Origin: Pecten maximus
Taxonomy: Eukaryota
Direction of reading: 5' to 3'
NCBI RefSeq assembly: GCF_902652985.1
Contig: NC_047029.1
Span: 9,548,001 to 9,612,000 of the forward strand
Length of the DNA: 64,000 nucleotides
Below the pieces are notes generated by a model. That model made no database searches. It worked only from the letters and a program-made list of their open reading frames with translations, and had not been told where the DNA came from. This document shows positions 7,193-57,552 of the stretch, in pieces. The position numbers were made by a program, and so were the translations under genes. Position 1 is the stretch's first letter; the number at the start of each line of letters is the position of its first letter.

Positions 7193-8796
7193 AATTGTAC
7201 TGGGGTTACAAATGAAAGATATGAAGTCCATGACATTGTAATGAAGGGAAGCATTTTGTTTTCTTTTGTTATATATATTTTATTGTTTCGCCTTCAATTC
7301 CGAAAGCAGAGGGAGGGGCTGGATGCACAAGTCAAGCTTTCTATTACTTCTATCATACAGTAACCCCATTCAATGAGCTGAAGATTGATTGTGTTACATG
7401 GAGGTGAACCATTCCAGAAAGGAGTGTAATACAAACAAGTTTGCCAGGGGGCCAATCTCGTTCACCTGTATTAACAATATGACAGAACAAGCAGAGCACA
7501 TTGATGACGTCGAAAAGTTAACATTTGAATTCGGTACTTTTTTTTAATAAATAATCTTTATTTATTAAAAAACAAAACAAAAAACAACAACAAACAAACA
7601 AACAAAACCAAAAAAAAACAAAACAAAAAGCTTCCGTTGCTTTTAAATTTTCGTTAAACTACCGAAGGTGAAATCATGACAATGATGGAATTTCTGGTCA
7701 GCGACATCCTTGCTGTGTTTGGTGAACAGATATAACGGATTATTGACATATCATGAAAACAAATTGACCCTTTAATGACCGACCTGGTTTGCAGAAATGG
7801 TAACAGAAATCTTTCAATTTCATCTGTAGGTGTATTGATGTTGCGATGTCTTAAAAACAAAGAAGACATTTTTTGACCATATCAATCGGATATACCATAT
7901 AGAACCTGGAATCAAATACAAGAACATATTCAACGTCCAACATTACCAGCAGTTGTTTTTCTTGTTTCTACACAACAAAAACACTGCATACCATTTAGTT
8001 TAACAATATTTTATTCAATATTCAATTGTCCCTGTCCCTGTTATTACGACTTCCATAACATATGTCTATTTATGGAAAAAAATCGTGTTTTAATGGTCGA
8101 CATCATGATATTATTAGGAAATATTTCCTTGTGCGATAATAGGTCGGGAATATAAAACGCCAATTCTTCTGGAACGTCTGGTCCTGCCCCCTAGTATTTC
8201 TATGTAAATCTATATTCTGTTCATGTTTTGCCCTCGTTTTGTGTTTTAATTCCATTTGCATGTCGTTATTCTTTGTTGTTTTAATACCCAATCTTTATTT
8301 TACCTCCCATTATACAGAATATTGTTCCCCTCATTCAAATATTATTCTGATCAAGTTACATCAAAGTCCATTTACGCATTCTGGACAAGTAGCAGTAGAG
8401 AGACGGATGGACAGAAAGAGTATGCTGCACCATGGTACACCGGTCCTCTGACCATTTTTTTAACGGAATTAAAATATTCTTATGGCCTATTATGACGGAC
8501 TACAGACTGTATGACAGGGACCAGAGAATTTTTTACAATCTATATCTAATTAGATAGTAATTTTCATTAATTTTGACGGGTTGGATTAAAATTTGTTAAA
8601 CATGACATCCATGACAGGTCCCTGTGATAATATATGTACGTAAATCAGAATATCTAACCCACGGTCCATATGTCTTATGTGTATCAGGATCTAAGATTCA
8701 GATCTAGCATATGGATTGTACTAAAGATAACCAGATATAAGAACAATTCAATAAAATAGCTAGAGTAAGATACAGTAAAGTCAAAATTAAAATGCG

Positions 8797-9355
8797 TTAT
8801 ACAGCTGTACCGTCCTTCCAGGACTTGTCGGTGATGTTAGGGACATCATACAGCTGTTCCGTCTCTCAAGACTTGTCAGTGATGTTAGGGACATCATACA
8901 GCTGTTCCGTCCCCTAAAGACTTATCAGTGATGTTAGGGACATCAAACAACTGTTCCGTCCCTCTAGGACTCGTCAGTGGTACTAGGGATATCATACAGT
9001 TGTTTCGTCCTTCAAGCACTCGTCAGTGATGTGAGAGGCATCATACAGCTGTTTCGTCCTTCTAGGACCCATCAGTGATGTTAGGGACATCGTACAGTTG
9101 TTCCGTCCTTCTCGGACTCGTCAGTGGTGTTAGGGACATCATACAGCTGTTCCGTCCTTCTAGGACTCGTCAGTGATGTAAGGGACATTGTACAGTTGTT
9201 CCGTCCCTCTAGGACTCGTCAGTGATGTAAGGGACATCATACAGTGGTTCCATCCCTCTATGACTCATCGTGATGTTAGGTACATCATACGGTACTAGTT
9301 CGTCCTTCTAGGACTCGTCAGTGATGTTAGGGACATCATACAGTTGTTACGTCCC
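8797..9355 (-). ncRNA. Tandem array of about 11 minimal hammerhead ribozyme units (48-51 bp period)
   Basis: Minus-strand consensus ACAUCA-CUGACGA-GUCC(UAGAA)GGAC-G(G/A)AA-CAGCUG-UA-UGAUGU-CCCUA contains the hammerhead core boxes, helix I, helix II and a palindromic helix III. Units start on the + strand at 8843, 8891, 8940, 8989, 9038, 9087, 9136, 9185, 9234, 9282 and 9333 (partial), with a degenerate unit near 8797. Confidence 0.85.
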
Positions 9356-10740
9356 TTACGTCCTTGATGCCAAGGGCCTACAGTATTGATATGATAAGAG
9401 ATGTATCAAGCCTCTGTGGACCATAAGACAGAGGTCAATAAACTTGTGAGTGCGATTGATAATGTCTATGAATGTAAATAAGGAATTACTTATCTGGGTC
9501 AACATGACTGAGTTGTCGACATGTCTAATGTTATACACTATTATTCATATACACACTCTTGACCTGGTGGGCCGCACTGAGTAGTAAGGTAAGTCATTTC
9601 TATGTCAAGAAAAACACCCTGTTATCCTGGAAAGTGTATCATATATTACATGAGAAAATTGTCTGTGATGTATGGCTAACACAAAATAATTCGGTGACAA
9701 ATTCTGTTAAAAAAATGTTAAACTGTTTTATTTACCGTGTTTATGACATTTTCGTTGACGATGCATTTTAATCAGGGTAACATACATACTTACCGAGAGA
9801 TATATCTACTGTATGATATGGCGTTAGAGAACTCGGTCTTAAGGTATATCCGAAATCTGTAACACAGTGTAAACCGCCACAATTGGGAGCACGGCTCCGA
9901 AGCATCACGAATGAGACAGAGATGAGAAATCATGTTGATATTGTTCCTATAAGGTATCATTTGTAGCAAATACTTATACCAAGGAACCCAAGATGTATAA
10001 GGTATCTCTACACGTTATCAGATTGAAAGTATGTTTTGGGGGTCTTGCACATTTGCTAGATCTTGGAAATTACCAAACGGGTATGGTAGAAATGGTAATA
10101 GCTGCATTGCTTTTAAACAGGCAAAATGCTTGAAATGTGAGAATGATCAAAAATTCATTTTAAAACACGCTACTCCTATCAACGTTGATATAGTAGGAGT
10201 AGGGGCCAATATTTTTTCTATCAGTACTAACCAGAAACAGACGTCACGGTACTGCACTTAGCATAGTGTTAAAACCATAGAGTGATCATATCTTCTAAAT
10301 GGACTTTGAGGACATTAATACGAAAATTGGATATGGAAATATAAAATTTTGCAACGAAATTATAACCACGACATGACTTCTTACCCATACCATTAACCAA
10401 CATAAATCTCTCGAAACCTCATTTAACATCGTAACTTCAGACATTTAACAAAAATTCAACGTCGAGCAATTTCCAAGCTTTAATAAAGGAATGTCTTTGA
10501 GACAATTCAACTATCCGATGTCACCTTTAACGGGTAATTGATCGTGAACCTGTTTAGCTGCAGCGAGTGAATTATTTTGTTCTCTATAGAAAACGATTCT
10601 ATTGGCAAATACGGGCATTTATGCAATGCTGTTTCACTTATGAGTTTGATCGACTACTGTATAATCCAGTTTGAACGTTACACATAACAGTAATGTTATG
10701 ACGTTTTTTCGTTGTTTTTTGTTTTGTTTTTTGTTTTTTT

Positions 10741-24178: not shown

Positions 24179-26477
24179 TCATTTAACAGTTGGAAAGAAA
24201 CGACCGTGAAAGGTTTCGGGAACTCGCGTTGGTAAGTCCGCTGTGTGAGAGGTTGTCATGGAAACGGCATCAATGATGGCAAGATAGCTCACATTCTTCT
24301 CACCATCCAGAACGGGCACCAACAAATAACCGTCATCTTCGTTAAGTTTAGAATGGTTATTGGCTGGGAATGGAATAAACCACATTTCCGCCGGGTAATG
24401 ATTGGGATAAAACCACATCCGATCTTTCCCATTGTCACAAAGATCTTTTTTAACCAGAGCAAAATGGCTATAATTGATATCGTCACACTTACTGACCAAA
24501 CCATACACGTAGCAGTAGTTCCGAGATCGGTAGTTCTCGTTGATTATCGGCATGTCAAACTTTGTTGCACAAGGATATTTAACAGATTCCGGAAATGGTT
24601 TCACACTTACCTGCGTTATGTTCAAATTAATCCCGTATCGTGTTAAAACCGGATGTGGATTTAGTTTGTTCCTTTCGCTACGATTTAACAATGTTTCCAG
24701 TTTTAAATCAAAGATGATTGAAGCGTCGAAGTATGTTGGTACGTCAATTACAATCTCCTTAGTCCACGTCTCGAAGGCGTTTATGTGATGCAAATAGAAT
24801 ACCGGTGGAACGTGAAACGTTCGGATGATTCCAGACTTGATCTCTATGACATATATTGTCATATTCCTTCGAGCGCCATTCCATTTGAAACTTTTTGAAA
24901 TAGATCCTGATGTCAGAAAAGATTTAATATCGAGAAATAGTGGCGGACTAAAAAATATCACGTAGTTTGGAGTAACTGAAAATGAATGCATGAACGAAAC
25001 TTCGTCTGGATCCACAGACCATTGCGCGACAACCTCCCGTTCAGTCGTCGATTTAATCCGGATAAGCGAAATCCTATGTTTAACTCCAGGAATAATAGCA
25101 AGACTGTATAAGTACGTAAAATGATGAGGCGTGCCGTATTCCGGAAGTGGATGAGCCGTCGACATAACATTCTTGAAGATGAAACTGTTTATACCGCCGG
25201 TAGAAGGGACTTCAGGATGCAGATTTCCAATCGTCCTAAGGGATACGGGGTCGATTTCATAGTTATCCCAAACATCATTCAATGTCACGAAGCTGCCTTG
25301 TTTATTTCCTTCGGAAGGAAAGCGGTAAATGTTCACATTCATGTTGTCCATTCCCCGCCATAACGCTAATAACATTAGGAGATGGTTAAATCGTGGCTCT
25401 GTAGATCCGAACAGCAAATATGGAGAAATGTCATTCTGTGAGATAGACTTCTTATAAAAGCTAGATTTGATGAATTTAGTAGAGAAAAGTACCGTACCGT
25501 TTCCTTTAAACTGCCAACTGTAGAGTTTTCCATACCCGTCAAACATGTGGCAAACACTCCGATTACCGACCTCGAACTGCGCAGGTCCATTTCTGATCTG
25601 TTTGAAAGAAAAAGCGGTTGTAAAATACTACAATCAATCTAATTAAAATCTAGATGGTCATTCTCAGTACGTTACATGAACATCTAACAACATCCCATAA
25701 GGGGTCACGTTGGGGTGACCTTTTGGATTAGCCAATCAGATGCCTACTTCCAGAATCTTTAAAGTGAATTTTATATGCACGAATATTAGCATGACTAGAG
25801 TGCATAGCTTGCATGATCTGTCGATTTGTTTCAAGTCATTTCGTCCCAGAAAGCATATAGTACATGTATATACATGCTGTACCGAAATGCTTTGCTTCAG
25901 ATGCATAATGTGACGAAATGGTTTGCTTCGATGCCATCGAAAAATTGACGATTCGCCCTGAAAGTGAAATGCACATAGCTCAAAGGTCATCAGAACGTGA
26001 CCCCTAATGGGATGTCGTTAGATGTTCATGTAACGTAGTGAGAAATACCATCGAGATCTTAATTAGATTGTACTGCAATATACAAACATTTAAAAAAAAA
26101 ATTGTCGGAAAGTAAGATGAAATGGCCATCATTAATACTTACTTTCGCTATTTATGAAACAATCTAGACTACTTATTCTAGAGAGTCATTAGGCATTGCT
26201 ATCAGTTTGTATTGTTTTACAGCCATACACTAAGAATTACCCTATGCTGTTGGATATATATAATTTTACTTACCAATATCCCGTTGATCCATCGAGGTAT
26301 CGGTTTGTCAAAGTGGATGGGGACATTCTCCAGTTCTTTTGTGTTAGTACGAAACATGTTCTCGAATCCCTTATCCTGTATCCCGTTCTCGTCAGTCCGA
26401 GTTCTGCGGAGGCATAAGTCTACACCAGTCCAGCATATTGTGGTGATTAGGAGAATGTAGAAAATAGATGGCGACAT
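24179..26477 (-). CDS. Carotenoid cleavage oxygenase (BCO-like, RPE65 family), copy B, intact; exons 26477-26274 and 25597-24179 (540 aa)
   Basis: In-frame splice WINGIL|IRNGPAQF...HMFDGYG, the DNMNVN motif, four His contexts (STAHP, FMHSF, YLHHINAFE, TFHG), EDDG.LL and a hydrophobic N-terminus. Confidence 0.93.
25635..26070. mobile_element. MITE in the intron of oxygenase copy B
   Basis: About 75-bp imperfect terminal inverted repeats: CAATCTAATTAA...ACGTTACATGAACATCTAAC.ACATCCCAT.AGGGGTCACGTT and its reverse complement at about 25995-26070. Confidence 0.85.
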
Positions 26478-38591: not shown

Positions 38592-41500
38592 TTATGCTTT
38601 GACGCAGGTAAAGTTGCAAGCCAAGGGACTTCCGATATGGTGTTTGTCCTTTACCAACCAGCCGGATTTGGTTAAAAATGCATCTTTGTTTTCGGTCCCC
38701 CAGCCAACACCGTAACCAGGGGAGCCATCTTTCGACAGACTTCGAGGAAGACAAGAAACTGAACTGATGGCGTAACCTACTGCTGCCACACTCGCATCAC
38801 CGACGTTTCCCTTATGGCTGCTATGGACATCGGGATCAGTGATGGATACAACACCGCCATCCTTCAAGACGCGCTTCACTTCTTTCATGACATTAGCTTG
38901 GTCCGGCAGATCGTGAAGAAGATCAAACATAATCACCCAATCAAATTTACCGTTCCAGTCGGCGGGCATGGAAGTCGCGTCTTCCTTTAAAAACTTCACG
39001 TTTTTGACGCCTTCAGATTTCGCGATGGCATTGGCTTTGGTTATTGCGATTTCGCTGTAGTCAACGCCGTATATGTCTGCGTCTGGGAAACGCTTACTTA
39101 ATGCTCTAGTCACACAACCTTCACCTGATCCTAAATCCAAGATGGTGGTCACTGTCTCTGAAATAATCAAATTATCTATGTGTAAAAATGATTGATGTTT
39201 TGTGTCCAAAGTGATTATTTACAAAATGTTTTATTGTTTACATAATTATTCAATAAGTATAGACCTAGCGTGCGATCGATTGAAGCATTAAACGTTTTAA
39301 ATCATCTCCTTAGACTATTTTGATTTTTCAGGGTTAGGGAATAGGCTGTCCATCCTTAACCAACCTTAAATTACAGCGGAAAACTGAAAAAGAATAATGC
39401 ATACAATGCGTGTATGAATCATTGTTTTTGAAAAATCATATTATACAATTTGATTTTAAATTTTTTATTTTAAATGTTGATTCACATATACCAAGATTAT
39501 GTTAGAAACAAAATTTGTGCATGAAAATAAGTCTGTCATATATATATGTTATAAGTTATATATGATACAGTGAGCAAATAATAATGAAAAAAAAACAGTA
39601 AACAAAAATATGACTACAGACACTGAGTCAGTTTCATTATTGTTAGCACGAGTAAGAATACATTTATTACTAAGGAGACAGTTTCATTAGTGTTAGCACG
39701 AGTAAGAATACATTATTACTAAGGAGACAGTTTCATTAGTGTTAGCACGAGTAAGAATACATTATTACTAACGAGACAGTTTCATTAGTGTTAGCACGAG
39801 TAAGAATACATTATTACTAACGAGGAAAAACTATACATTTGGCTATTAAGACAAGTGTACTTTATCTGTAGTGAACTCATACATACAGGGGCAATGTTTT
39901 TACGTGAAGTCAGAAATAAGTCAAGAATCGGTCATCCATTTCTTTGTCCAAGATTAGGTACCAAATGTGGTTGCAGGAAGTTGGACCATGACAAATAACT
40001 TTATGCTTTGGTGATATAACAGTTGAGGATTGCATGACAACCACAGGGCCATCCCTAGAAAACATTAGTCTTACTGATGATAAAACCTTACTTGTCAACT
40101 TTGCGGCGGGTGTAAAGAGCTGGTCTACCACCGCGCCTGTATCCGACATTCGTTGTTCGAAGACATCAAATGTTTCCGGAAGTTCATCAGCAAGGGTGTA
40201 CCCTAAAACACCCAATGGTTATAACATAACTAATAAACGCAGAAGTCATTACACAGCGCATTGGTTATTATCGGAATCTGACATAAAGTCTGAGATCAGA
40301 GGCAAAGAAAGTAGAATATAATGTAATAGAAAGAAGGGCATAATGTTATAGAAAGTAGAGTATAATGTAATAGAAAGTAAAGCATAATGTTATAGAAAGT
40401 AAAGTATAATGTAATAGAAAGTAAAGTATAATGTAATAGAAGTAGAGTATAATGTAATAGAAAGTAAAGTATAATGTAATAGAAAGTAAAGTATAATGTA
40501 ATAGAAGTAGAGCATAATGTTATAGAAAGTAGAGTATAATGTAATAGAAAGTAAAGTATAATGTAATAGAAAGTAAAGTATAATGTAATAGAAAGTAAAG
40601 TATAATGTAATAGAAAGTAAAGTATAATGTAATAGAAGTAGAGTATAATGTAATAGAAAGTAGAACATAATGTAATAGAAAGTAGAACATAATGTAATAG
40701 AAAGTAAAGTATAATGTAATAGAAGTAGAGTATAATGTAATAGAAAGTAAAGCATAATGTAATAGAAAGTAAAGTATAATGTAATAGAAGTAGAGTATAA
40801 TGTAATAGAAAGTAAAGTATAATGTAATAGAAAGTAAAGCATAATGTAATAGAAAGTAAAGTATAATGTAATAGAAGTAGAGTATAATGTAATAGAAAGT
40901 AAAGCATAATGTAATAGAAAGTAAAGTATAATGTAATAGAAGTAGAGTATAATGTAATAGAAAGTAAAGTATAATGTAATAGAAGTAGAGTATAATGTAA
41001 TAGAAAGTAAAGCATAATGTAATAGAAGTAGAGTATAATGTAATAGAAAGTAAAGTATAATGTAATAGAAAGTAAACTATAATGTAATAGAAGTAGAGTA
41101 TAATGTAATAGAAGTAGAGTATAATGTAATAGAAAGTAGAATATAATGTAATAGAAAGTAGAGCATAATGTAATAGAAAGTAAACTATAATGTAATAGAA
41201 GTAGAGTATAATGTAATAGAAAGTAAAGTATAATGTAATAGAAAGTAAAGTATAATGTAATAGAAAGTAGAGTATAATGTAATAGAAAGTAAAGTATAAT
41301 GTAATAGAAAGTAAAGCATAATGTAATAGAAGTAGAGCATAATGTAATAGAAAGTAAAGCATAATGTAATAGAAGTAGAGTATAATGTAATAGAAAGTAG
41401 AGCATAATGTAATAGAAAGTAAAGTATAATGTAATAGAAGTAGAGTATAATGTAATAGAAAGTAAAGTATAATGTAATAGAAAGTAAAGTATAATGTAAT

Positions 41501-44500
41501 AGAAAGTAGAGGATAATGTAATAGAAAGAAGGGTATAATGTAATAGAAAGTAAAGTATAATGTAATAGAAGTAGAGTATAATGTAATAGAAAGTAGAGTA
41601 TAATGTAATAGAAGTAAAGTATAATGTAATAGAAAGTCACATATAATGTAATAGAAAGTAAAGTATAATGTTATAGAAAGTAAAGTATAATGTAATAGAA
41701 GTAAAGTATAATGTAATAGAAAGTCACATATAATGTAATAGAAAGTAAAGTATAATGTAATAGAAAGTAAAGTATAATGTAATAGAAGTAGAGTATAATG
41801 TAATAGAAGTAGAGTATAATGTAATAGAAAGTAAAGTATAATGTAATAGAAAGTAAAGTATAATGTAATAGAAAGTAAAGTATAATGTAATAGAAAGTAA
41901 AGTATAATGTAATAGAAAGTAAAGTATAATGTAATAGAAAGTAGAACATAATGTTATAGAAAGTAGAACATAATGTTATAGAAAGTAGAACATAATGTAA
42001 TAGAAGTAAAGTATAATGTAATAGAAAGTAACATATAATGTAATAGAAAGTAACATATAATGTAATAGAAAGTAAAGTATAATGTAATAGAAAGTAAAGT
42101 ATAATGTAATAGAAGTAAAGTATAATGTAATAGAAAGTCACATATAATGTAATAGAAAGTAAAGTATAATGTAATAGAAAGTAAAGTATAATGTAATAGA
42201 AGTAGAGTATAATGTAATAGAAGTAGAGTATAATGTAATAGAAAGTAAAGTATAATGTAATAGAAGTAGATTATAATGTAATAGAAAGTAAAGTATAATG
42301 TAATAGAAAGTAAAGCATAATGTAATAGAAGTAGAGCATAATGTAATAGAAAGTAAAGTATAATGTGATAGAAAGTAAAGTATAATGTAATAGAAGTAGT
42401 AATGTAGTAAGTAATATTAAAGAAGTAAGTATAATGTAATGAGTAAGATTTTAGAGTATTAATGTATAGAAGAGTAAATGTATAGAGTGTAATAGAATGT
42501 AGAGTAGTATATGTAATAGAAGTAGAGTATAATGTAATAGAAAGTAAAGTATAATGTAATAGAAAGTAAAGTATAATGTAATAGAAAGTAAAGTATAATG
42601 TAATAGAAAGTAGAGTATAATGTAATAGAAAGTAAAGTATAATGTAATAGAAGTAAAGTATAATGTAATAGAAGTAGAGTATAATGTAATAGAAGTAGAG
42701 TATCATGTAATAGAAGTAGAGTATCATGTAATAGAAAGTAAAGTATAATGTAATAGAAAGTAAAGTATAATGTAATAGAAAGTAAAGTATAATGTAATAG
42801 AAGTAGAGTATAATGTAATAGAAAGTAGAACATAATGTTATAGAAAGTAGAACATAATGTAATAGAAAGTAGAACATAATGTAATAGAAAGTAGAATATA
42901 ATGTAATAGAAAGTAGAATATAATGTAATAGAAAGTAAAGTATAATGTGATAGAAAGTAAAGTATAATGTAATAGAAAGTAAAGCATAATGTAATAGAAA
43001 GTAAAGCATAATGTAATAGAAAGTAGAACATAATGTAATAGAAAGTAGAATATAATGTGATAGAAAGTAAAGTATAATGTAATAGAAAGTAAAGCATAAT
43101 GTAATAGAAAGTAGAATATAATGTAATAGAAAGTAGAATATAATGTAATAGAAAGTAGAACATAATGTAATAGAAAGTAGAATATAATGTAATAGAAAGT
43201 AAAGCATAATGTAATAGAAAGTAAAGCATAATGTAATAGAAAGTAGAATATAATGTAATAGAAAGTAGAATATAATGTAATAGAAAGTAGAATATAATGT
43301 AATAGAAAGTAAAGTATAATGTGATAGAAAGTAAAGTATAATGTAATCGAAGTAGAGCATAATGTAATAGAAAGTAGAGTATAATGTTATAGAAAGTAAA
43401 GCATAATGTAATAGAAAGTTAATTTGAAATACAATCCTAAGATTTTCTTTGTTGCATTTGTGCATTATAATTTAAAAGTATGACTTTTTGGAAATTTTGC
43501 TTGTGGACTACTTTTTGTGAAAGCTTTCTTGACGTCGTTATTCGGATGTCCATTTCATATGTAGGTAATTTCAGTTGTTTTCATTGTATAGAACTTCTCT
43601 TTAGTTAAACTCCGTGTCTCGAGTAATTTTTTACATAAACATGCAATGCTTATCTTCACGTTTTACAGATTTGGAATACCGAATCATGACTTGGAGGATC
43701 AATTTCGTTGCTGTAAACGTCTCGATGATTGGTTTGGTTTGGTTTATTTTGTTTAACGTCCTATTAACAGCTAAGGTCATTTAAGGACGGCCTCCCGTGC
43801 GTGCGACATGCATGCGTGTGGTGAGTGCGTATGTGTGTTTTAGGAGGCTGCGGTATGTTCGTGTTAAGTCTCCTTGTGATAGACCGGAACTTTTGCCGAT
43901 TTATAGTGCTACCTCACTGAAGCATACCGCCGAAGACACCCAGCAGTACACCCCACCCGGTCACATTATACTGACAACGGGCGAACCAGTCGTCCCACTC
44001 CAAATATGCTGAGCGCTAAGCAGGAGTAGCAACTACCATTCTTAAAGACTCTGGTATGTCACGGCCAGGGGACAGAACCCAAAGCCTTCCTCACAGGGGC
44101 GAACGCTCAACTAAAGGCCAAAAGTGAGGCATTGTCAAGGGAGACATTAGGAAGAAGAAAGTTGTTGAGAAAGAAGAGAAAAGATAAGATCCCAAATTTA
44201 GTCGCCTCTTACGATCATGCAATGGGGGCAGCAGGTACAATTCTTACGCCCTACCTGCAGGACAGACGTCTCGATGACAAGCGCAGCGACACCCTTCTTT
44301 GAATAATCAGGAAAATTTCCCATTTTTGATTCTTTTATTTTGTTTTTCGAAATAAAAACGTCCGATTCAGTGATATTTTCAACAATCGGCTTCACGTTTT
44401 TTCAAATTCTTTTCTACTGCTACGCAATTATAAATTGCAAGGTAATTTTTTTGCATGGAACAACCACTTTCGACATACAAATTTTTCAAAATATCACACC

Positions 44501-47500
44501 AGAAGAATTTTTTTTAGAATATTTGGTCATCTGAATTTCCTACATCTTTAATATTACGGCATACAAAGTTCAGAAAACTAACCTCGTGGCCCGTCCTTCT
44601 TGAAACAGTTCTTCGCTTTCGCAGTCAGAGTACCCAGGACAGGGAATAAAAAGGCAAACTCAGTTCCACTAAGTCCCGGTTTAAGTTTCTCAGGAACGAA
44701 ATATTTGTCGGAGTCATCCAGCGACACGATCCTGGTCGACACCATACAGCCGAGCCACTCCCTAACATACCTGAAAAGGGAGGTAATTATAAGTCGTTAT
44801 CTTTTATCAGACCATACAGCCCAGCCACTCCCCGACATACATACAAAGGGAAATAATCATTCAACCCAGCCACTCCCGGACATACCTACAAAGGAAGATA
44901 CTCATTCAACCCAGCCACTCCCGGACATACCTACAAAGGAAGATACTCATTCAACCCAGCCACTCCCGGACATACCTACAAAGGGAGATAATCATTCAAC
45001 CCAGCCACTCCCGGACATACCTACAAAGGGAGATAATCATTCAACTCAGCAACCAATCGGGAACCGTCGGCACTTTCCGTAAACGTGCCGACGGTTCCCG
45101 ATTGCTCAGCAACTCCCGGACATACATACAAAGAGAGATAATCATTCAACCCAGTCACCCTCAGACTAACCTAAAAAGGGAGGTAATAATAAGTCATAAT
45201 TTTTTTCCAGACCATACAGCCAAGCCACCCACGGACATACCTACAGAGGGAGATAATTAGTCAGTTGTTTGACCATATAACTCCGCCACTAAATGATATG
45301 CCTACAAAGGGAGGTAACTGCACGTTATACATCGGTGGTCAGGCCATATAGACAAGTCATACACGTATATACCAATAAAGGGAGATAACTACATGTAATA
45401 CATCATAAATCAGAACTTACGGTCTAGTCATTCCCGTGGACAGTGCACACAAGTAAGTATATAATGGATGATTTTAATAGACATGGTACAAAGGTATCTA
45501 ACTATGTTCTGATGGAAATCCTACGCCCCAATCTATCATATAAACAAATAAACAATATATGTTTTGTGGAAATTATATTCAGATACAGCACATGCGTGTG
45601 CTTCTGGTTAGTACTACTACTACTACTACTAATAAAAAGCCCCTACTCCTTTGATATAGTAAGAGTAGGACTAATATACGTATATGTTTCTATTAATACT
45701 TACCAGAAGCAGACGCCTGTGGATATAGCTTGATTGATTTCCAAACGTCCGCGCGACCATGATTGCATCATAACACGTTTGTATACATTATAAAATAGAA
45801 AGGGTTTGTTTGTTTGTTTAGATTTACGGTCCATCGACAACTATGGTTAGACAGGGAGTAAATCTAACGAAGCAATATAATGACGAGCGTATCAAAAATT
45901 ACAAGTGAACAGCGTGCATACTTGCATATTTACCCAATATTTGCATAATACATTTCCTAATTTTCCAATGTGGTTTATCTAGACGGTCATAATATTTTGG
46001 ATCATTCATTTCCTAATTTTTCAATGTGGTTTATCTAGACGGTCATAATATTTTGGATCATTCATTTCCTAATTTTCGTGGTTTATCTAGACGGTCATAA
46101 TATTTTGGATCATTCATTTCCTAATTTTCGTGGTTTATCTAGACGGTCATTATATTTTGGATCATTCATTTCCTAATTTTCCAATGTGGTTTATCTAGAC
46201 GGTCATAATATTTTGGATCATTCATTTCCTAATTTTCGTGGTTTATCTGACGGTCATAATATTTTGGATCATTCATTTCCTAATTTTCGTGGTTTATCTA
46301 GACGGTCATGATATTTTGGATCATTCATTTCCTAATTTTCCAATGTTGTTTATCTAGACGGTCATAATATTTTAGATCATTCATTTTCTAATTTTCGTGG
46401 TTTATCTAGACGGTCATAATATTTTGGATCATTCATTTCCTAATTTTCGTGGTTTATCTAGACGGTCATAATATTTTGGATCATTCATTTCCTAATTTTC
46501 GTGGTTTATCTAGACGGTCATAATATTTTGGATCATTCATTTTCTAATTTTCGTGGTTTATCTAGACGGTCATAATATTTTGGATCATTCATTTCCTAAT
46601 TTTCGTGGTTTATCTAGACGGTCATAATATTTTGGATCATTCATTTCCTAATTTTCGTGATTTATCTAGACGGTCATGATATTTTGGATCATTCATTTCC
46701 TAATTTTCCAATGTTGTTTATCTAGACGGTCATGATATTTTGGATCATTCATTTCCTAATTTTCGTGGTTTATCTAGACGGTCATAATATTTTGGATAAT
46801 TCGTTTCCTAATTTTCGTGGTTTATCTAGACGGTCATAATATTTTGGATCATTCATTTCCTAATTTTCCAATGTGGTTTATCTAGACGGTCATAATATTT
46901 TGGATAATTCATTTCCTAATTTCGTGGTTTATCTAGACGGTCATGATATTTTGGATCATTCATTTCCTAATTTTCCAATGTTGTTTATCTAGACGGTCAT
47001 GATATTTTAGATCATTCATTTCCTAATTTCGTGGTTTATCTAGACGGTCATAATATTTTGGATCATTCATTTCCTAATTTTCCAATGTTGTTTATCTAGA
47101 CGGTCATGATATTTTGGATCATTCATTTCCTAATTTTCGTGGTTTATCTAGACGGTCATAATATTTTGGATAATTCGTTTCCTAATTTTCGTGGTTTATC
47201 TAGACGGTCATAATATTTTGGATCATTCATTTCCTAATTTTCCAATGTGGTTTATCTAGACGGTCATAATATTTTGGATAATTCATTTCCTAATTTTTCA
47301 ATGTGATTTATCTAGACGGTCATAATATTTTGGATCATTCATTTCCTAATTTTCGTGGTTTATCTAGACGGTCATAATATTTTGGATCATTCATTTCCTA
47401 ATTTTCGTGGATTATCTAGACGGTCATAATATTTTGGATAATTCATTTCCTAATTTTCCAATGTTGTTTATCTAGACGGTCTAATTCTATGTCAGCCGGG

Positions 47501-49195
47501 GATATTCCTAACGATTTCGCTTGCCTATACTGTCCACAGGAAAGATATTTTATGTTTAAGGTTGGTTTTAAAATTTATTAGAAGGAGTTGATTTAATTAC
47601 AAATTTTAATTACATGTTAGATGGTGAAACTCAAACAGACTTCATTAAAATTACTTACGCAAAGTTGCAGGACATATCCCGTTTCTGGTTTTTTTTCGAG
47701 GACTGGTTATTTTTACTTTTGTATATTTGACGTCAGCCTACGTTTAGCACTAGTGTGTGATTTCGATAAACTGAACATACACCAAAAAAAAAATAAAAAA
47801 ACTACTCTTGTCACTCTTTAGATCTCGCGGCACTGTAAACATTGAATGATTCTATACGACCTTATTATGTTCGTTGGGCGCAAAACGCCCTGATGTATCA
47901 GGTAAAATGACAAGATGGGCTGCAATTAATGTTCTATACAATTAATTTTGGTATGTAATGTTCAATTTATGATTTTTTATCGTTAAGGATATGTGACGCA
48001 TGAGAAGTTTTTTTTTTTGTTATTGTAGTTTTACGAGTATTATTCAGATGATTAATGATGTGACAAGCACGAAGAAATTTTATATGTAGTTAAATTTTTC
48101 TGTAGAATTAATTACATGATTAACAATTATGATAATAATTTTGAGGTTATATACCGCTATATCACAGCAAAACATCAATCTCAAAGCTGTTCACAAATTA
48201 CAAATATGTAATTATCCCGTGTTATTAAGCAACCAGCCAATGTCTTTCTTCGTCTCCCATGGGAGGATACAGCCCGAGCTGCCATTTTGGCGCTAGCAGT
48301 TTACACATGACATTTCTTGCACTGACCAACCACATGTTTACAGCTGAGTCGGCTGGAACACAGCGGAGTAAAGTATCTTGTTCAAGGATACATCACAGCA
48401 TGCTTGGACTCAAACTAGCGACCCTTCGATCACGTAGTTCTGCATCTTACCACTAGGCCACTGTGTCGGGACTCAAACTAGCGGTTACATAGCCCTGCAT
48501 CCTACCACTAAACCAGCGTACCAGGACTCAAACAAGTGACCCTTTGGTCATGTAATCCTTTACCCTACCACTAAACCACAGACTCAAACAAGGGACCCTT
48601 TGGTCACGTCATCCTATACCCTACCACTAAACCACAGACTCAAACAAGCGACCCTTTGGTCACGTCATCCTATACCCTACCACTAAACCACAAACTCGAA
48701 CAAGCGACCCTTTAGTCACGTAATCCTATACCTAACACTAAACCACAGACTCAAACAAGCGACCCTTTGGTCACGTCATCCTATACCCTACCACTAAACC
48801 ACAAACTCGAACAAGCGACCCTTTGGTCACGTAATCCTATACCTAACACTAAACCACAGACTCAAACAAGCGACCCTTTGGTCACGTCATCCTATACCCT
48901 ACCACTAAACCACAAACTCGAACAAGCGACCCTTTGGTCACGTAATCCTATACCTAACACTAGACCAACGTGCCTCTAGAAACTGTACAAGTCAACACAT
49001 AAAACAGAAATAAAGACCAAGCATTTACCTCTCTTTGAGATTACAGGCGTCTGCCAGCTGCTGTGAAGATACTGGTTTGTCCAGTCTTTTCAGCTCGTTA
49101 AACAGCCCAAGATCTCTTCCTATTGTTATGGCAGAGGTGATGTAACTTCCAGCAATGAAGTTCGATATGTTTTTGGAATACGTTTCTAAATCCAT
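38592..49195 (-). CDS. Rv2258c-like class I SAM-dependent methyltransferase with N-terminal winged helix, copy 1; exons 49195-49029, 44770-44583, 40202-40092, 39157-38592 (343 aa)
   Basis: Four exons splice in frame: MDLETYSKNISNFIAG...IGRDLGLF..L....SSQQLADACNLKERYVREWLGCMV...CFKKDGPRGY...ILDLGSGEG...YGVDYSE...FDWVIMFDLLHDL...LKDGG...SCLP.S...G.GWG. Confidence 0.9.
39629..39824. repeat. Tandem repeat of about 50 bp, 4 copies
   Basis: Unit CAGTTTCATTAGTGTTAGCACGAGTAAGAATACATTATTACTAAGGAGA. Confidence 0.9.
40305..43420. repeat. 21/22-bp satellite of about 3.1 kb (about 140 copies) in methyltransferase copy 1 intron 2
   Basis: Unit AG(A)AAGTA(A/G)AGTATAATGTAAT. It generates the spurious LYFLLHY-type ORFs. 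Confidence 0.97.
43729..44265 (-). mobile_element. Full-length SINE-like retroposon with 12-bp target-site duplication
   Basis: Target-site duplication ACGTCTCGATGA at 43717-43728 and 44266-44277, an (AAACC)n tail, a degenerate tRNA-like region and a central GCGCTCAGCA...GTCAGTATAATGTGACCGGGTGGGG block (Meta-domain-like from memory). A partial copy lies at 50565-50742. Confidence 0.85.
44740..45440. repeat. Tandem copies (45-70 bp) of the intron 1/exon 2 junction of methyltransferase copy 1
   Basis: Minus-strand unit TTGAATGAGTATCTTCCTTTGTAG|GTATGTCCGGGAGTGGCTGGG matches the true junction CCCTTTTCAG|GTATGTTAGGGAGTGGCTCGG. Confidence 0.85.
45054..45104. mobile_element. 51-bp micro-MITE with 9-bp target-site duplication
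   Basis: Perfect 20-bp inverted repeats CAATCGGGAACCGTCGGCAC / GTGCCGACGGTTCCCGATTG with an 11-bp spacer, and CTCAGCAAC on both sides (45045-45053, 45105-45113). Confidence 0.85.
45950..47481. repeat. 52/56-bp minisatellite, about 29 copies, in methyltransferase copy 1 intron 1
   Basis: Unit CATTTCCTAATTTTC(CAAT)GTGGTTTATCTAGACGGTCATAATATTTTGGATCATT. Confidence 0.97.
48200..48965 (-). mobile_element. tRNA-derived SINE (about 48465-48200) preceded by about 9 tandem copies of its tRNA-like head (about 56-bp unit)
   Basis: Minus-strand unit TGTGGTTTAGTGGTAGGGTATAGGATGACGTGACCAAAGGGTCGCTTGTTTGAGTC grades into GTGGCCTAGTGGTAAGATG...GTTTGAGTCC...GTATCCTTGAACAAGATACTTTAC (CORE-like). Confidence 0.75.
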
Positions 49196-50564
49196 TTTCA
49201 GATTTGTAATTTGTCAACGCGCTTTCGGACCTAAGTGTGTATTTTCAGAGCTGCCGGGGAGTGCTTCTTGATGGGTAGACCTGACTGTTATGACTCGTAA
49301 GGGACTGGTGAGATAAAATAGTTAGCTAGATTTTTATACCTGTAGTAGGTACCTACGGACGACGTGCAGTGCCATATCTGTTTGATTCCCGGGATATCTG
49401 ACTTGCTCTCGCTTTTTTCTCCGCTTGCTGTATATTTTTGATACAAATAACTACATTGGTATGTCCACAAACTATGGAGACCGCGCCTTTCGAAGTCTAT
49501 TAAACAGTAGTCCTGCTGTAGTTTTCCATTTATTGGATGGGAGAAAGAATTTGAAGAAAGATTAGGACAGCCATCACTTTTAATGTCGTTACCAACTGTG
49601 TGTACGGAACAGCACAAGTATAGTAGATCAAAGGAATTCGCCTTCGTGGCTTTTGACTGCATCATCAAAAGAAATCAAATATATATATATATATCGCCCC
49701 ATTACGACATTTAGTATTGTGTGTAAATTTCATTATTAATTAATTTAGGTTTTCAATCATATTCGATTGTTTAGAGGAACAAGGACGTATCTCCAACATT
49801 GTTGCTCCGGTTCCTCTTTATAATGTAAACTCAGATAATTTCATGATCAGTTCTCGAAGGTTTACGTTTTGATTCGTTTGAATAGCTTCATAGTTTAGAA
49901 TATACACTCGGGGTTCTTTTGCAACTCAATATTGCACCGTCGTTGTGATTTTACCCAATACTTTTTCTTTGTCTTCGCGGCATCAGCCAATACTCTTAAT
50001 CCACTTTGGGTTCTGATGCGTGGCTTTGATTACCAGTCATCCGTTTGCGCATGTGTGCATGCCATATTGTCCGTGACTCGTTCACATTATGGAGAATAGA
50101 GCACCGCATTAGCGATTCAAGCAGTGGGTTTCTTGGTTTTAGTTGCAGTTATGAAGAGCTACGGTATTGATTCTCACATTATATGAGTATATATTTTCTA
50201 TCACTCAACACATTTTTGTAATTTCGTCATAATTTATATGTTAAGAAAACAAAGAGATGTTTTAAGACCTTGCCAAAGTCATTCATCCTTCAGTTTTTCC
50301 TATAGCTGTATCAACGATTTGTTATTTTAAATCACAAAAACGTTATTCAATATGTCGATCGGGTATACCATATAAACCTTAAAAAGCTCTTGCCACCAAT
50401 CTCCCTACAAATTTGATCGAACAGAAACCCCTTTGGCCCTAGTCGTATGCTTAACGATACAGATCCTGGTATACATGTAGTTCACAAGTTTTGAATTCTT
50501 CAAAATCAACTTTTTCATCAATTTATCTTCTGGAGAAACATAATTCTGCAGTTGGAGAAAGGTT

Positions 50565-51422: not shown

Positions 51423-54400
51423 TTAAGCTTTAACGCAAGTAAAGTTACAAGCCAAAGGACTTCCGATATGACGTTTGTCCTTCACCAGCCAACCAGAACT
51501 CTTCAAAAAAGCATCCTTATTTTCCGTTCCCCAGCCAATGCCGTAACCAGGGGCGCCGTCTATCGACAAACTACAGGGGAGGCAAATTACGGTACTGAGG
51601 GCGTATCCTACTCCTGCCACGTTCGGATCCCCTATGTTATCTCTATGGTTACTATGGACATCCGGATCAGTGATGGAAACAACCCCGTTGTCCTTCAGCA
51701 CACGATTCACCTCTTTCATGGCATTTACAGGATCTGATAGGTCGTGAAGTACATCATACATAACCACCCAGTCAAACTTGTGTGTCCAGTCAGCGGGCAA
51801 GGACGTGGCATTTTCTTTCAGAAACTTCACGTTTTTGATGCCTTGGGTATGAGCTATTTCAATGGCCTTGGTAATTGCCATATCGGTGTAGTCAACGCCG
51901 TATATGTCTGCACATGGAAAACGCCTGCTCAACGCTCTGGAAATGTTTCCTGCACCGGACCCTAGGTCAAGAATTGACGTCCTTGCCCCTAAAAATGAAT
52001 GACATTAATATTTCACACCGTTTCGAGCTTAAAGATTCCTTTATTTCAGTATCCTATCAAACAAATTATCCATACATCAGTTATTTTGACAGCCATGTTA
52101 TCTAACGGATGAGTGCCTTCAGCGTACTACAAGACCGTCTAGTGGCAACATTCATTTCTGAATTTAATGTCGTGTAATCAGGATTGCGTGCATAGGTCGG
52201 GAAGAGATTAATATTTCACATATTCTGACATCATATAAACCTACGATAGAAGTTGATTTGGGAAGGGAGAGGGGGAGGGGGTGATATTTACTAAATGTAA
52301 TATGTTTAGGAGGAAAATCGTGCCCTTTAGATTAAAAAGAAAGATTTCATATTATGGTAACCAAATACTCGTTTGGAGTAGCAGTGTGATCAAACTTTAC
52401 CCGTGAATTTTGTCGCTGGCACCAGGAGCTGTTCCACTACCATGTCAGGATCGGCAACTCTTTCTTCAGTGACATCAACTACTTCTGGGAGCATATCACC
52501 AAATTCATAACCTAGAGAATGTGATCCATAAATACCAGTATAATATTGACTTAACAGTTATACTTTTCATCTGTCATCGAAGTCGTAGGAGTGTTTGAAA
52601 GCTGCATGGTGTATTGTATATTGATATTTCTATTTTTACTCAATTTGGGCTCCATTAACCTACCAAATTTAATGTTTCTTTTGACTATGATTTTGACAAG
52701 ATTAACATCAATCTACGCGTATGAAAAAAGCCGCCCAATTACCCGATCCCGGAAGAATATAAGTTTGTAAGAGAAATGGTCTTTCTTATATCACTATCAT
52801 AATATATATTCAGATTCTTAGTATTTCAATGAGAATTTCAGCAAAATAAGAATCCCTTAATCCCCCAAGGAGTTGATTGGGAACTCGTGTCAAGAGAGCT
52901 TCCGTTAGAAACTACACAAGGAACTGTTAAATCGATCCAAAAGAACTGTCAGTTAACAACTTAACAGTCAATGAATTGAGCTTCGTCTCTAATCAGTTGT
53001 AGAACTCGTATCAAGGTAACAACCAATTCTGTAACAATTTCGTAAAGATGTCCAATTTGAATTGAAGCGGAAGACATTTTTTAAATCCCTAGAAAAAAAT
53101 AACATTCCATTTAAATCATAACAAATGTGTTGCATAATCGAGTTTTGAGCCTGATTGTTCATTCTCTAATAATGGACTATTTTTAAACACAAACTTTAGA
53201 CTTGCAAAAGTTCTAGTAAATGTAGATTTGTATTCCTGCCAATCATAAGGTAAACCAACGTGCTCCATCATATTGAAAAATATCAGGATTTTTTTTGTCG
53301 AGTTCATAGGATGACGAATTGAGTTGCTCTTTGACAAATTCAACATGAACTTCCCAGTTCATTAAATGTGTCTCAAGATCAACTGAAGTCATCACCCCAT
53401 AATATCAACCAAAGCCAGATTCATCATCAAATGCTCTTTTAAAGATTTACAAATATCCTAGGTAATATCAACATATTTGAATTGAGCAGAGGTTCCCATC
53501 TTCCAAAATTAAAGGCGAAACCTGATAATATTACGAAATAAGTTAATATGTTTGTATTCACAAATGATCAATAGAATTAAGTTTCTTAGGGCTAGTACAT
53601 TCTTAACATGAAATGTCATCGGTATTAAATAAACTGTTCCCGACCACTCTTAATATATCTAAATAACTTCATATATAATAACTAACTCGAGGCCCGTCTT
53701 TCCTGAAACAGTTCTTGACTTTCCTAGTCATAGTACCCAACACAGGGAAGAAGAAAGCGGAATCAATACCACGAAGTCCTGGTTTAAGTTTCCCAGGGAT
53801 GAAGTAGCGGTCTGAGTCATCTAGTGAAACGATCCTTGTTGAGACCATACATCCCAGCCACTTCCGGACATACCTTCAACGGGAGACAATACTCATGATG
53901 TAATACTAGTAAGACCGAGAAATTTTCAGATATATCTATAAAGGGAGGTAATTAAACATGAAACACCACGATCTAGATACGAACCAAGCAACCATACAAA
54001 GGGAGATAATTACACGTAATACATCTGTTGTCAGATCATACAGCCCAATAATCATCGTATATACCTACAAAGGGAGATAGATACTTGCAATACATCGGAA
54101 GTCAGAAAATACATCCCAGTCAACCTGTGTAATTATCTCCCTTCGTATATACATACAAAGGGAGATAATTACACATAATACATCAGTAGTTAGATCATAC
54201 AGCCCAGTCTCTCTTGTATATTGCAAAGGAAGAGAGTTACACGAAATATATATCACTAGTAAGACCATGCAGCTAAGTCACTCTCGGTCATACCCTTGAA
54301 AACCCTATTGAGGTAGGGTTGTCGACATCTGAAGGTCACAAGGCAGCGATAACAAATACTAAAACCGTTTCAGTGCTAACTGCTTTATATTCACAATAAG

Positions 54401-56047: not shown

Positions 56048-57552
56048 CTGAATAATTTCCGTAAAGCAAAACTGTATCAAACACTTGTCCAGGAAATCTC
56101 CACAAAACATTGCGTTTTCATCATCGGTTAAAGATCTGAACAATGTCATCCAAAATTGACATGTTTGTTTCCTCAACATCCCCCATAACCACTCAATTCT
56201 TTTCCGTATAGAAAACTTTTATTTCCAGCAAGTTCGTCGTCATGGTTTTGTCTAAGAAATATTTGCATTTGTTCAACATGTCCGTTTTCGGTCCCCATAT
56301 CTGCACGTACTCTCTGTGGACACCCTTGTATTTGTTTTACTGCTTTTATGAAGTAGCTGGCTATAACTTTTGGATCGTTATTTGTCTTGTAGGCCTCCAT
56401 CCAAATAATTTTGCGTGAGAAACCATCTATGCAACCATGAATTGAAATGCCGTAAGGTTTAAGTTTGTCATAACCGTCTATATGCCAGACGTAGTTAGGA
56501 CCTTTGCTGAAGTATGTCCGTCGTCGTAGCCTCCGTCTTTTCCTAGCAACTATCCCAGTACTATCCAATACGTGTAAAAGTGCCAATACCGTATCTCTTG
56601 GTATATTGAACCCATGTTGTAAACATTTCTGATTCATCCATCTGTATCCATGGTGAAAATTCGATGCCATAACAAATAGTGCAACGTCCAATATGTCCGA
56701 GTGGTTTTTCCTTCTCGACAAATGTTGCTGTCGTAAGATCCTTTTCAATGTCGATCTACTAATAACACAGCCAGACGAAATCGCCAATGACGACAATATT
56801 TCATCGTTACTGAATCCCAGGTAAAAGCAACATTTCACAATGTCGGTAACAACTGCCATTCCGTAGTGTTGTATTACATAAGCTCCGGTTTCATGATGGA
56901 GCACACTGTTACATGTAATGCAAGACACTTTAATATATGTATAAACGAGAAATAATCTCGTATATACGAGAAATAAACTCGTATATACGAGAAAGAAACT
57001 CGTATATACGAGAAATAATCTCGTTATTACGAGAAATAAACTCGTATATACGAGAAATAAACTCGTTATTACGAGAAATAAACTCGTATATACGAGAAAT
57101 AATCTCGTTATTACGAGAAAGAAACTCGTATATACGAGAAATAATCTCGTTATTACGAGAAATAATCTCGTATATACGAGAAATAAACTCGTATAAACGA
57201 GAAAGAAACTCGTATATACGAGAAATAATCTCGTTATTACGAGAAATAAACTCGTATATACGAGAAATAATCTCGTATATACGAGAAATAAACTCGTATA
57301 TACGAGAAAGAAACTCGTATATACGAGAAATAATCTCGTATATATGAGAAAGAATCTCGTATATACGAGAAACAATCTCGTATATACGAGAAATAATCTC
57401 GTAATTACGAGAAATAATCTCGTATATACGAGAAATAAACTCGTATATACGAGAAATAATCCCGTATATACGAGATTTTTTATTTATTTTTTAATGATAC
57501 CAACTAAGTTATTTTTTATATTGGTCCTATTCGGCTTCCGTAGGCTTCCGTA
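56048..57552 (-). mobile_element. Decayed integrase-type (IS3EU-like) DNA transposon; transposase pseudogene 56859-56048
   Basis: N-terminal HTH-like region followed by RRLRRRTYFSKGPNYVWHIDGYDKLKPYGISIHGCIDGFSRKI...RVRADMGTEN. A deletion/frameshift falls between SFLYGK and RIEWLWGMLRKQ. Putative terminus TACGGAAGCC (minus strand, ending at 57542 and duplicated to 57552); the other terminus was not found. Confidence 0.8.
56937..57476. repeat. 21-bp palindromic subterminal repeat array, about 26 copies
   Basis: Unit CTCGTATATACGAGAAATAA(A/T) with palindromic core CTCGTATATACGAG, lying between the putative terminus and the transposase start. Confidence 0.95.

What the first reader, a model, noticed from the sequence alone, without database searches (positions are those of the whole stretch)
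8989..9184. The tandem arrangement lets neighbouring units refold as type III hammerheads with complementary loops
Seen: across a junction the minus-strand consensus reads ACAGCUGU-A-UGAUGU-CCCUA-ACAUCA-CUGACGA-GUCC-UAGAA-GGAC-G(G/A)A-ACAGCUGU. The 5-nt spacer closes helix I as a loop, and the palindrome gives an 8-bp helix III between adjacent units. Loop 1 (CCCUA) and loop 2 (UAGAA) share CUA/UAG complementarity. Inference: the period may be set by folding, with activity needing at least two units, similar to dimeric cleavage of minimal hammerheads. The junction at about 8995-9052 has a fully canonical core (CUGACGA, GAAA, GUA), although its helix II has a mismatch and its loops deviate from consensus.
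Basis: inference. Interest (0 to 1): 0.7.

Follow-up and report, generated by a model that had tools for sequence, protein, structure and literature searches.

The report
Decayed hammerhead minisatellite inside a retrozyme
This is a real run of eleven copies of a self-cutting RNA motif whose neighbouring copies are predicted to fold together, but it likely grew as ordinary repeat DNA out of an old jumping element, and most copies, including these, carry changes that would likely stop them from cutting.

Summary
The 49-bp array (8799-9356, minus strand) is real, and an unmutated junction is predicted to fold as a three-way hammerhead. That fold is one half of the classic double hammerhead with a 5-nt linker. 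The array sits inside a ~397-bp retrozyme-like element. Single-hammerhead copies of it read as type I, and hundreds of copies (estimate) have the hammerhead part expanded (1735 exact junctions). Function is not supported: 1 of 11 junctions here and 66 of 320 units in an unbiased sample keep the canonical core. No helix or loop-loop pair covaries in 94 arrays. Arrays turn over as DNA. The same element has spawned 49-65-bp arrays from four ribozyme-free segments, so catalysis is not needed to explain the period. Unexplained: the general base G12 is the most mutated position (333 of 997, against 125 at G8), which may reflect selection for uncut RNA. The scan noted a similar decayed array in another animal (e1-9039096).

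The parts
8799..9356 (-). Minisatellite of 11.4 x 49-bp units, each the hammerhead part of the element plus a 5-nt linker
   Evidence: TRF; unit-by-unit parse; Rfam sub-threshold hammerhead hits
8996..9052 (-). Only junction with a canonical core (core 9026-9020, G12-A14 9006-9004, predicted cut between 9044 and 9043); mismatches in helices I, II and III; predicted fold is not a hammerhead
9045..9101 (-). Only one of five window junctions folded with strand folding whose predicted fold is the three-way junction; it carries A9G in the core
8713..8794 (-). 3' flank of the parent element, ending at the family's common 3' end about 88 nt after the last hammerhead
   Evidence: 60.8 bits to the family flank, reversed controls at most 24.7; aligned to 8713; end distribution
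9365..9370 (-). GCAUCA, the outer 5' strand of helix I as in single-hammerhead copies; the first core behind it is broken
   Evidence: first-unit letter G in 18 of 36 arrays
9371..9390 (-). Short remnant of the element's 5' flank (copy is 5'-truncated)
   Evidence: aligned 9390-9334 at 78%; 26.5 bits, just under my 28-bit threshold

Best explanation
The array is a 49-bp minisatellite made of the hammerhead part of an old, ~397-bp, non-coding retrozyme-like element that was likely spread by a Penelope-type reverse transcriptase, and this copy is likely no longer able to cut. Shown: the array lies between the same flanks as single-hammerhead copies. It starts and ends in type I register, and it shares one junction sequence with arrays across the genome. 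Inferred: the junction arose once or a few times and array-bearing copies were dispersed with their flanks. Each array then grew and shrank by DNA slippage or unequal exchange while its letters decayed without selection for the fold. Predicted: an unmutated junction folds as one half of the classic double hammerhead, with the linker closing helix I, and would cleave after GUA into 49-nt pieces. About one junction in ten still has every feature for that.
For: Shared flanks: 62 of 88 arrays have a family flank on at least one side and 34 on both; reversed controls gave 0 and 1 hits; single-hammerhead copies carry the 3' flank in 27 of 37 and the 5' flank in 26 of 37. The reconstructed monomer is 397 bp and 38% GC; 48 of 92 3' ends fall 85-92 nt after the hammerhead, 5' ends scatter, and 12 loci run on into the next monomer, one for about 1.9 units. 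This fits the fixed internal start of Penelope reverse transcription, where hammerhead mutants still insert (PMC11167929, passages). The outer helix I pair is G-C (first unit G 18 of 36, last unit C 23 of 30), the inner pair A-U (1339 and 1532 of 1578). DNA turnover: 59 of 63 arrays share haplotypes between units and 29 of 63 have more similar neighbours. No covariation: 3 pairs with two-sided change against 5.1 in shuffles. Helix II varies as much as free positions (0.154 against 0.140). Canonical core in 66 of 320 units; fully intact junctions 184 of 1766. Ribozyme-free arrays of 49-65 bp come from the same element at 6 loci.
Against: No autonomous partner was found in 50 GIY-YIG loci. No long array of the full monomer was seen, and the reconstructed circle is not unusually stable (z -1.0). 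Array units are closer to the family consensus than their own flanks (0.89 against 0.81 in 7 flank-picked arrays; single copies 0.81 against 0.80 in 9). G12 mutates far more than the other CpG guanine. Plain neutral decay predicts neither of these last two. 37 of 94 arrays keep at least one intact junction, and three keep more than half. No flank position clearly marks array-bearing copies as one subfamily (best p 3e-4 among about 200 columns, loose thresholds). Cleavage was not measured.
Confidence: 0.7

Rival explanations
1. One reading: the array is a working chain of type III hammerheads stabilised by a CUA/UAG loop-loop contact, and selection on this fold fixes the 49-nt period.
For: The unmutated junction folds as predicted, and intact junctions elsewhere reach 46.6 bits on the type III model (cut-off 48.5). 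Helix I is 6 bp and helix II 4 bp; a 2-bp difference often goes with a loop pseudoknot in type III hammerheads (PMC3088659, supplementary legend passage). The inner helix I pair is compensated relative to the parent. The parent's leader ends UUA where the array has CUA, which would turn a U-G into a C-G.
Against: Only 3 bp, with a 12-14% chance rate. Loop-loop changes: 226 one-sided breaks against 13 two-sided pairs; 1 two-sided change in 94 sequences. No enrichment in core-intact junctions. U and A of loop 2 are predicted to pair with each other. CUA/UAG also extends a decoy helix taken by 99 of 300 real junctions, while 68 of 300 fold as a hammerhead. Ribozyme-free arrays have the same period.
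Confidence: 0.1
2. RNA-level origin: intact arrays cut themselves into 49-nt pieces that circularise and are copied round by a Penelope-type reverse transcriptase, seeding or refreshing arrays in element copies. G12-dead variants are favoured because only uncut RNA carries an array together with its flanks.
For: One junction sequence is shared genome-wide. Units look younger than their flanks. G12 is the most variable position, to A, C and T. All element-derived units are 49-65 bp, whereas 148 of 181 unrelated tandem families in the same loci are under 40 bp. Family sequence occurs in RNA-library contigs (230 contigs in run X5, not shown to be transcribed).
Against: Arrays are not star-like; they share haplotypes and neighbours. 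Other core positions, including G8, are not enriched for inactivating changes. Ribozyme-free units of the same size cannot self-cleave. The released 49-mer is not predicted to fold as a hammerhead, linear or circular.
Confidence: 0.12
3. The parent is not an RNA-mobilised retrozyme but the stub of a Penelope pseudo-LTR, or a DNA-mobilised element with internal tandem repeats; the hammerhead is a passenger.
For: Copies are old (about 80% identical to consensus), and no full-monomer arrays longer than about 1.9 units were seen. A young Penelope-like element in this genome has a similar-looking hammerhead motif in its repeat. Minisatellites born inside transposons are common (PMC6947457, passages).
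Against: No homology to the 50 GIY-YIG loci beyond weak or chance hits. No Penelope-type reading frame lies beside the element among the 13 of 38 nearby frames scanned with Pfam; only two LINE-type fragments hit. The monomer closes head to tail without an intervening coding region.
Confidence: 0.08

Closest known systems
Metazoan non-LTR retrozymes (PMC7229834, passages and section 14 read; bioRxiv 10.64898/2026.07.22.740005, parts 1-3 of 5 read)
   Same: Non-coding monomer in the 150-450 bp range, GC under 45%, one type I hammerhead with 6-bp helix I, 4-bp helix II and weak palindromic helix III, head-to-tail junctions. Close to the 350-390-bp mussel retrozyme, which also lacks the usual tertiary nucleotides.
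   Different: Here the hammerhead alone is tandemly expanded inside the monomer (49 bp; the preprint's shortest consensus is 51 bp). Copies are old and mostly truncated. No long full-monomer arrays and no circular RNA were shown.
Double-hammerhead (dimeric) cleavage of weak-helix-III type I hammerheads (described in PMC4209133, parts 1-2 of 4 read; PMC6765202, passages; the 1988 and 2017 primary papers not seen)
   Same: Two palindromes form one long helix III, and the downstream core cleaves the upstream site.
   Different: The linker between partners is only 5 nt, so half of the dimer becomes a self-contained 57-nt fold with type III topology.
Minimal hammerheads of Penelope-like elements (PMC4209133; PMC11167929, passages)
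   Same: Palindromic helix III, predicted need for a partner, fixed 3' end and variable 5' truncation of copies, and a genome rich in GIY-YIG frames (150 matches among 150 scored of 300 candidates).
   Different: Helix II is the canonical 4 bp with no extra nucleotide after A9, and no reverse-transcriptase frame is attached.
Minisatellite families born inside dispersed retroelements, such as those from SINE B1 and Alu (PMC6947457, passages and table)
   Same: An internal segment of a dispersed element expands in tandem at many loci and turns over as DNA.
   Different: The unit is a complete ribozyme motif, and at least four other ~50-bp segments of the same element also expand.

Membership tests
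Type III hammerhead (Rfam RF00008) | Helices I and II closed by loops, helix III open | tested here: met
   Predicted minimum-energy fold of unmutated junctions; true of the junction only, not of the parent element
Type III hammerhead (Rfam RF00008) | Score at or above the gathering cut-off of 48.5 bits | tested here: not met
   30.6 at best in the window; 46.6 at best in five other loci
Type III hammerhead (Rfam RF00008) | Conserved core C3-A9, G12-A15.1, U16.1-H17 | tested here: inconclusive
   Met by the family majority; 1 of 11 junctions here; 66 of 320 units in the unbiased sample
Type III hammerhead (Rfam RF00008) | Loop 1/loop 2 tertiary contact | tested here: inconclusive
   A 3-bp match is present, but there is no covariation and no enrichment in intact junctions; non-canonical contacts cannot be tested
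Type III hammerhead (Rfam RF00008) | Self-cleavage | not testable with these tools
   Only assembled contigs were available
Type I hammerhead (Rfam RF00163) | Score at or above 34 bits in type I register | tested here: met
   Up to 36.5 in intact units of L182 and L070; not reached in the window array, 31.4
Type I hammerhead (Rfam RF00163) | Weak palindromic helix III that needs a partner | tested here: met
   8-nt palindrome; the monomer's hammerhead fold is 5.8 kcal/mol above the rival fold
Non-LTR retrozyme | Non-coding monomer of 150-450 bp, GC below 45-50%, one type I hammerhead | tested here: met
   397 bp, 38% GC, one hammerhead in single copies
Non-LTR retrozyme | Head-to-tail repeats of the monomer | tested here: inconclusive
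   12 loci run through the monomer joint; the longest is about 1.9 units; no long arrays seen
Non-LTR retrozyme | Abundant, highly self-paired circular RNA | tested here: inconclusive
   Reconstructed circle z -1.0; contigs cannot show circles or ends
Non-LTR retrozyme | Target-site duplications | not tested
   Copies are too diverged and were not examined systematically
Penelope-like element minimal hammerhead | Located in the pseudo-LTR of an RT/GIY-YIG element | tested here: not met
   No real match in 50 loci around GIY-YIG hits, a partial sample of the genome
Penelope-like element minimal hammerhead | [quoted passage not shown] | tested here: not met
   4-bp helix II directly after A9

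The most novel reading that the evidence does not exclude
The 49-nt unit is the smallest natural self-processing repeat: intact arrays cut themselves into 49-nt RNAs that circularise and are rolled by a Penelope-type reverse transcriptase into hundreds of loci. Knock-out of the general base G12 is selected because only uncut RNA can carry an array with its flanks, or because cutting harms host transcripts. The element's ~50-nt hairpin modules are each units of such amplification.
Probability: 0.12. Interest if true: 0.75.

Novelty: new variant of a known kind. Interest (0 to 1): 0.4.

Why it matters
It shows how a retrozyme's ribozyme can become a genome-wide minisatellite family whose junction turns a partner-dependent type I hammerhead into a self-contained type III-like fold, a natural circular permutation by tandem duplication. 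Intact arrays (L182, L070, L050) give ready constructs to test dimer-type cleavage with a 5-nt linker. The excess of G12 changes is a testable hint that genomes or elements select against cleavage.

Tried and rejected
(1) Rolling-circle birth as the only source of arrays: the flat pooled lag profile suggested it, but per-array tests rejected it. (2) An apparent excess of G8A over N7 changes came from a query that itself had G8A and G12A. It vanished in unbiased samples; only the G12 excess held. (3) GGA as a conserved variant core: it is array-specific and was inflated by my first query. A literature search for A13G in hammerheads found nothing relevant, so its damaging effect is recalled; A13 is listed in the required core in PMC3088659 (passage). 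(5) Partner search. (6) Expression: no contig of X5 or X1 covers the unique flank 8500-8795, and only 5 and 3 partial contigs of X5 and X7 lie on a monomer-like copy. Holes in contigs prove nothing, and the small word shares are no evidence. (7) Flank-diagnostic subfamily test was inconclusive, with thresholds too loose; recounted with blastn. (8) Rfam at gathering thresholds finds no hammerhead in the window. (9) The 2017 paper on dimeric Penelope hammerheads (PMC5785218) is not held. Supplements of the 2026 preprint could not be seen and may list 51-bp families like this one.

Full report
Observation. The window holds 11.4 copies of a 49-bp unit at 8799-9356. On the minus strand each unit has an 8-nt palindrome, GUA, two 6-nt arms separated by a 5-nt linker, CUGACGA, a 4-bp helix II with a 5-nt loop, and GAA or GGA. 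Rfam sees hammerheads only below its cut-offs: 31.4 bits for type I (cut-off 34) and 30.6 for type III (cut-off 48.5).

The fold. For an unmutated junction from another array (L196) the three-way junction is the minimum-energy structure (-19.6 kcal/mol, z -3.75). A single unit in type I register prefers another fold by 5.8 kcal/mol, and a 49-nt version with a 4-bp helix III by 2.6. So two palindromes are needed. This is the classic double-hammerhead arrangement (PMC4209133, parts 1-2 of 4 read; PMC6765202, passages): the downstream core cleaves the upstream site. The only difference is that the linker has shrunk to 5 nt and closes helix I. In a consensus tetramer the adjacent 8-bp helix III reaches a probability of only 0.33, because palindromes pair in several ways.

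This array. One of 11 junctions has a canonical core; seven have GGA, and several have G8A, A9G, U4C or indels. None of the 9 junctions scored without gaps is fully intact. Four of five window junctions folded with strand folding take a non-hammerhead fold, including 9052-8996. [quoted passage not shown] The effect of A13G itself is recalled; one search found nothing on it.

The family. The genome (G000, 918 Mb) has 1735 exact copies of the 25-nt junction against 0 for the control. The first 100 lie in 28 loci, which extrapolates to roughly 300-500 arrays (my estimate). Arrays share flanks with each other and with copies that hold a single hammerhead. By blastn, 62 of 88 arrays have a family flank and 34 have both; reversed controls gave 0 and 1 hits. 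Single copies read as type I with the helix I pair G-C. Arrays keep that pair at their outer ends (first unit G in 18 of 36, last unit C in 23 of 30) and have A-U inside (1339 and 1532 of 1578). Intact units pass the type I cut-off (36.5 bits) and reach 46.6 on the type III model. Following the flanks gives a head-to-tail monomer of 397 bp and 38% GC. 48 of 92 copy ends fall 85-92 nt after the hammerhead, 5' ends scatter, and 12 loci run into the next monomer, the longest for about 1.9 units. This matches non-LTR retrozymes (PMC7229834, passages and section 14). It also matches the fixed internal start of Penelope reverse transcription, for which uncleaved RNA is the main substrate and hammerhead mutants still insert (PMC11167929, passages). 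No partner was found in 50 loci around GIY-YIG hits, and the reconstructed circle is not unusually stable (z -1.0).

Selection on the fold. In 26 arrays picked by the junction alone (26 of 28 fetched had at least two usable units), 66 of 320 units have a canonical core and 32 also an intact helix II. Over 94 arrays, 184 of 1766 junctions are fully intact, in 37 arrays. One junction per array gives no covariation: 3 pairs with two-sided change against 5.1 in shuffles, score 0.077 against 0.076. Helix II varies as much as free positions, and the catalytic positions other than G12 are not significantly more conserved (0.089 against 0.140, p 0.14).

The loop-loop contact. Three base pairs between two 5-nt loops arise by chance 12-14% of the time; the match is intact in 4 of 11 junctions here and in 297 of 420 core-intact against 989 of 1346 dead junctions. 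Changes break it 226 times against 13 two-sided rescues. The same letters extend a decoy helix that 99 of 300 sampled junctions prefer. In its favour are the 6/4-bp geometry, which often goes with loop pseudoknots in type III hammerheads (PMC3088659, passages), and the change of the parent's UUA to CUA. It remains an untested possibility without comparative support.

What sets the period. Arrays turn over as DNA: 59 of 63 arrays with at least 10 junctions share haplotypes between units and 29 have more similar neighbours. A 48-bp back-joint in read contigs over a ribozyme-free part of the monomer led to 30 loci picked by that part (30 of 38 matches). Five of them hold 49-65-bp arrays from ribozyme-free segments and one a hammerhead array. 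Across all own-genome loci there are 6 such loci from 4 segments. Unrelated tandem families in the same loci are mostly shorter (148 of 181 under 40 bp), and three ribozyme-free units fold as hairpins with modest z-scores of -1.4 to -1.9. The element is thus a nursery of ~50-bp minisatellites. Hairpin-bounded duplication is a reasonable inference; catalysis is not required.

Unexplained. G12 is non-G in 333 of 997 otherwise perfect units, G8 in 125, though both lie in CpG. Per array, G12 exceeds G8, C11.1 and N7 (p 0.013, 0.019, 0.0015), with changes to A, C and T. Array units are also closer to consensus than their flanks (7 arrays). Both would fit selection for uncut RNA or RNA-level refreshment, but a local mutation hotspot and biased expansion of perfect tracts are not excluded.

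Expression. RNA-library contigs carry family sequence (230 in X5) but cannot show strand, ends or cleavage. A run labelled as a second organism (X20, kind not on record) also holds the family.

Comparison and novelty. Retrozymes, dimeric hammerheads and minisatellites born in retroelements (PMC6947457, passages) are known. A 2026 preprint reports retrozyme consensus lengths from 51 bp and found cleavage in 1 of 9 tested dimers (supplements not seen). Searches listed no description of a hammerhead-only minisatellite nested in a retrozyme monomer; most subscription journals are not searched. The scan noted a similar single decayed array in another animal (unchecked). Interest 0.4.

Noticed in passing
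L406/L380 (G000:C16), L407/L387 (C3), L405 (C12), L384 (C2), L385/L145 (C2), L049 (C1): Tandem arrays of 49-65 bp from four ribozyme-free segments of the same element (30, 19, 2.5, 9.6, 9.8 and 5.1 copies). Three loci on different contigs share one junction. Read contigs show a further 48-bp back-joint over the common 3' end.
   Followed up: partly
L363:720 and L375 (G000:C1:53401800-53409800; C3:3199500-3209000): A young Penelope-like element (360-aa and 792-aa frames, repeats 99.8-100% identical) with a hammerhead-like motif in its terminal repeat; helix II resembles this family's, no wider homology seen.
   Followed up: partly
L151:1521-3035: A LINE-type endonuclease frame (PF14529) abuts a hammerhead unit head to head; L170 has an RT fragment just upstream of an array. 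Earlier scan notes describe LINEs that target such repeats.
   Followed up: no
L061, L048, L114: Two element copies or arrays in opposite orientation within one locus, like inverted Penelope-type insertions.
   Followed up: no
L039: An array that changes from the 49-bp unit to a diverged 50-bp unit with a broken palindrome and helix I.
   Followed up: no
window 49864-49934: A second fragment of the element (spacer part, 73% identity, + strand).
   Followed up: no
window 10702-13589, 15213-16635, 24179-25627, 38592-39218, 51423-52004, 56173-56859, 57890-62326: MFS transporter exons on + starting about 1.4 kb from the array; two RPE65-family oxygenase copies, one split over two frames; two methyltransferase-like frames (one scanned); an integrase-core fragment; a long frame of 1478 aa that was not scanned.
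   Followed up: partly
window 39625-39824, 44813-45050, 45936-47485, 48525-48967, 40306-43419; 21292-21364: Other minisatellites of 49, 45, 52, 56 and 22 bp, with no match to this element; one weak tRNA-like match.
   Followed up: no
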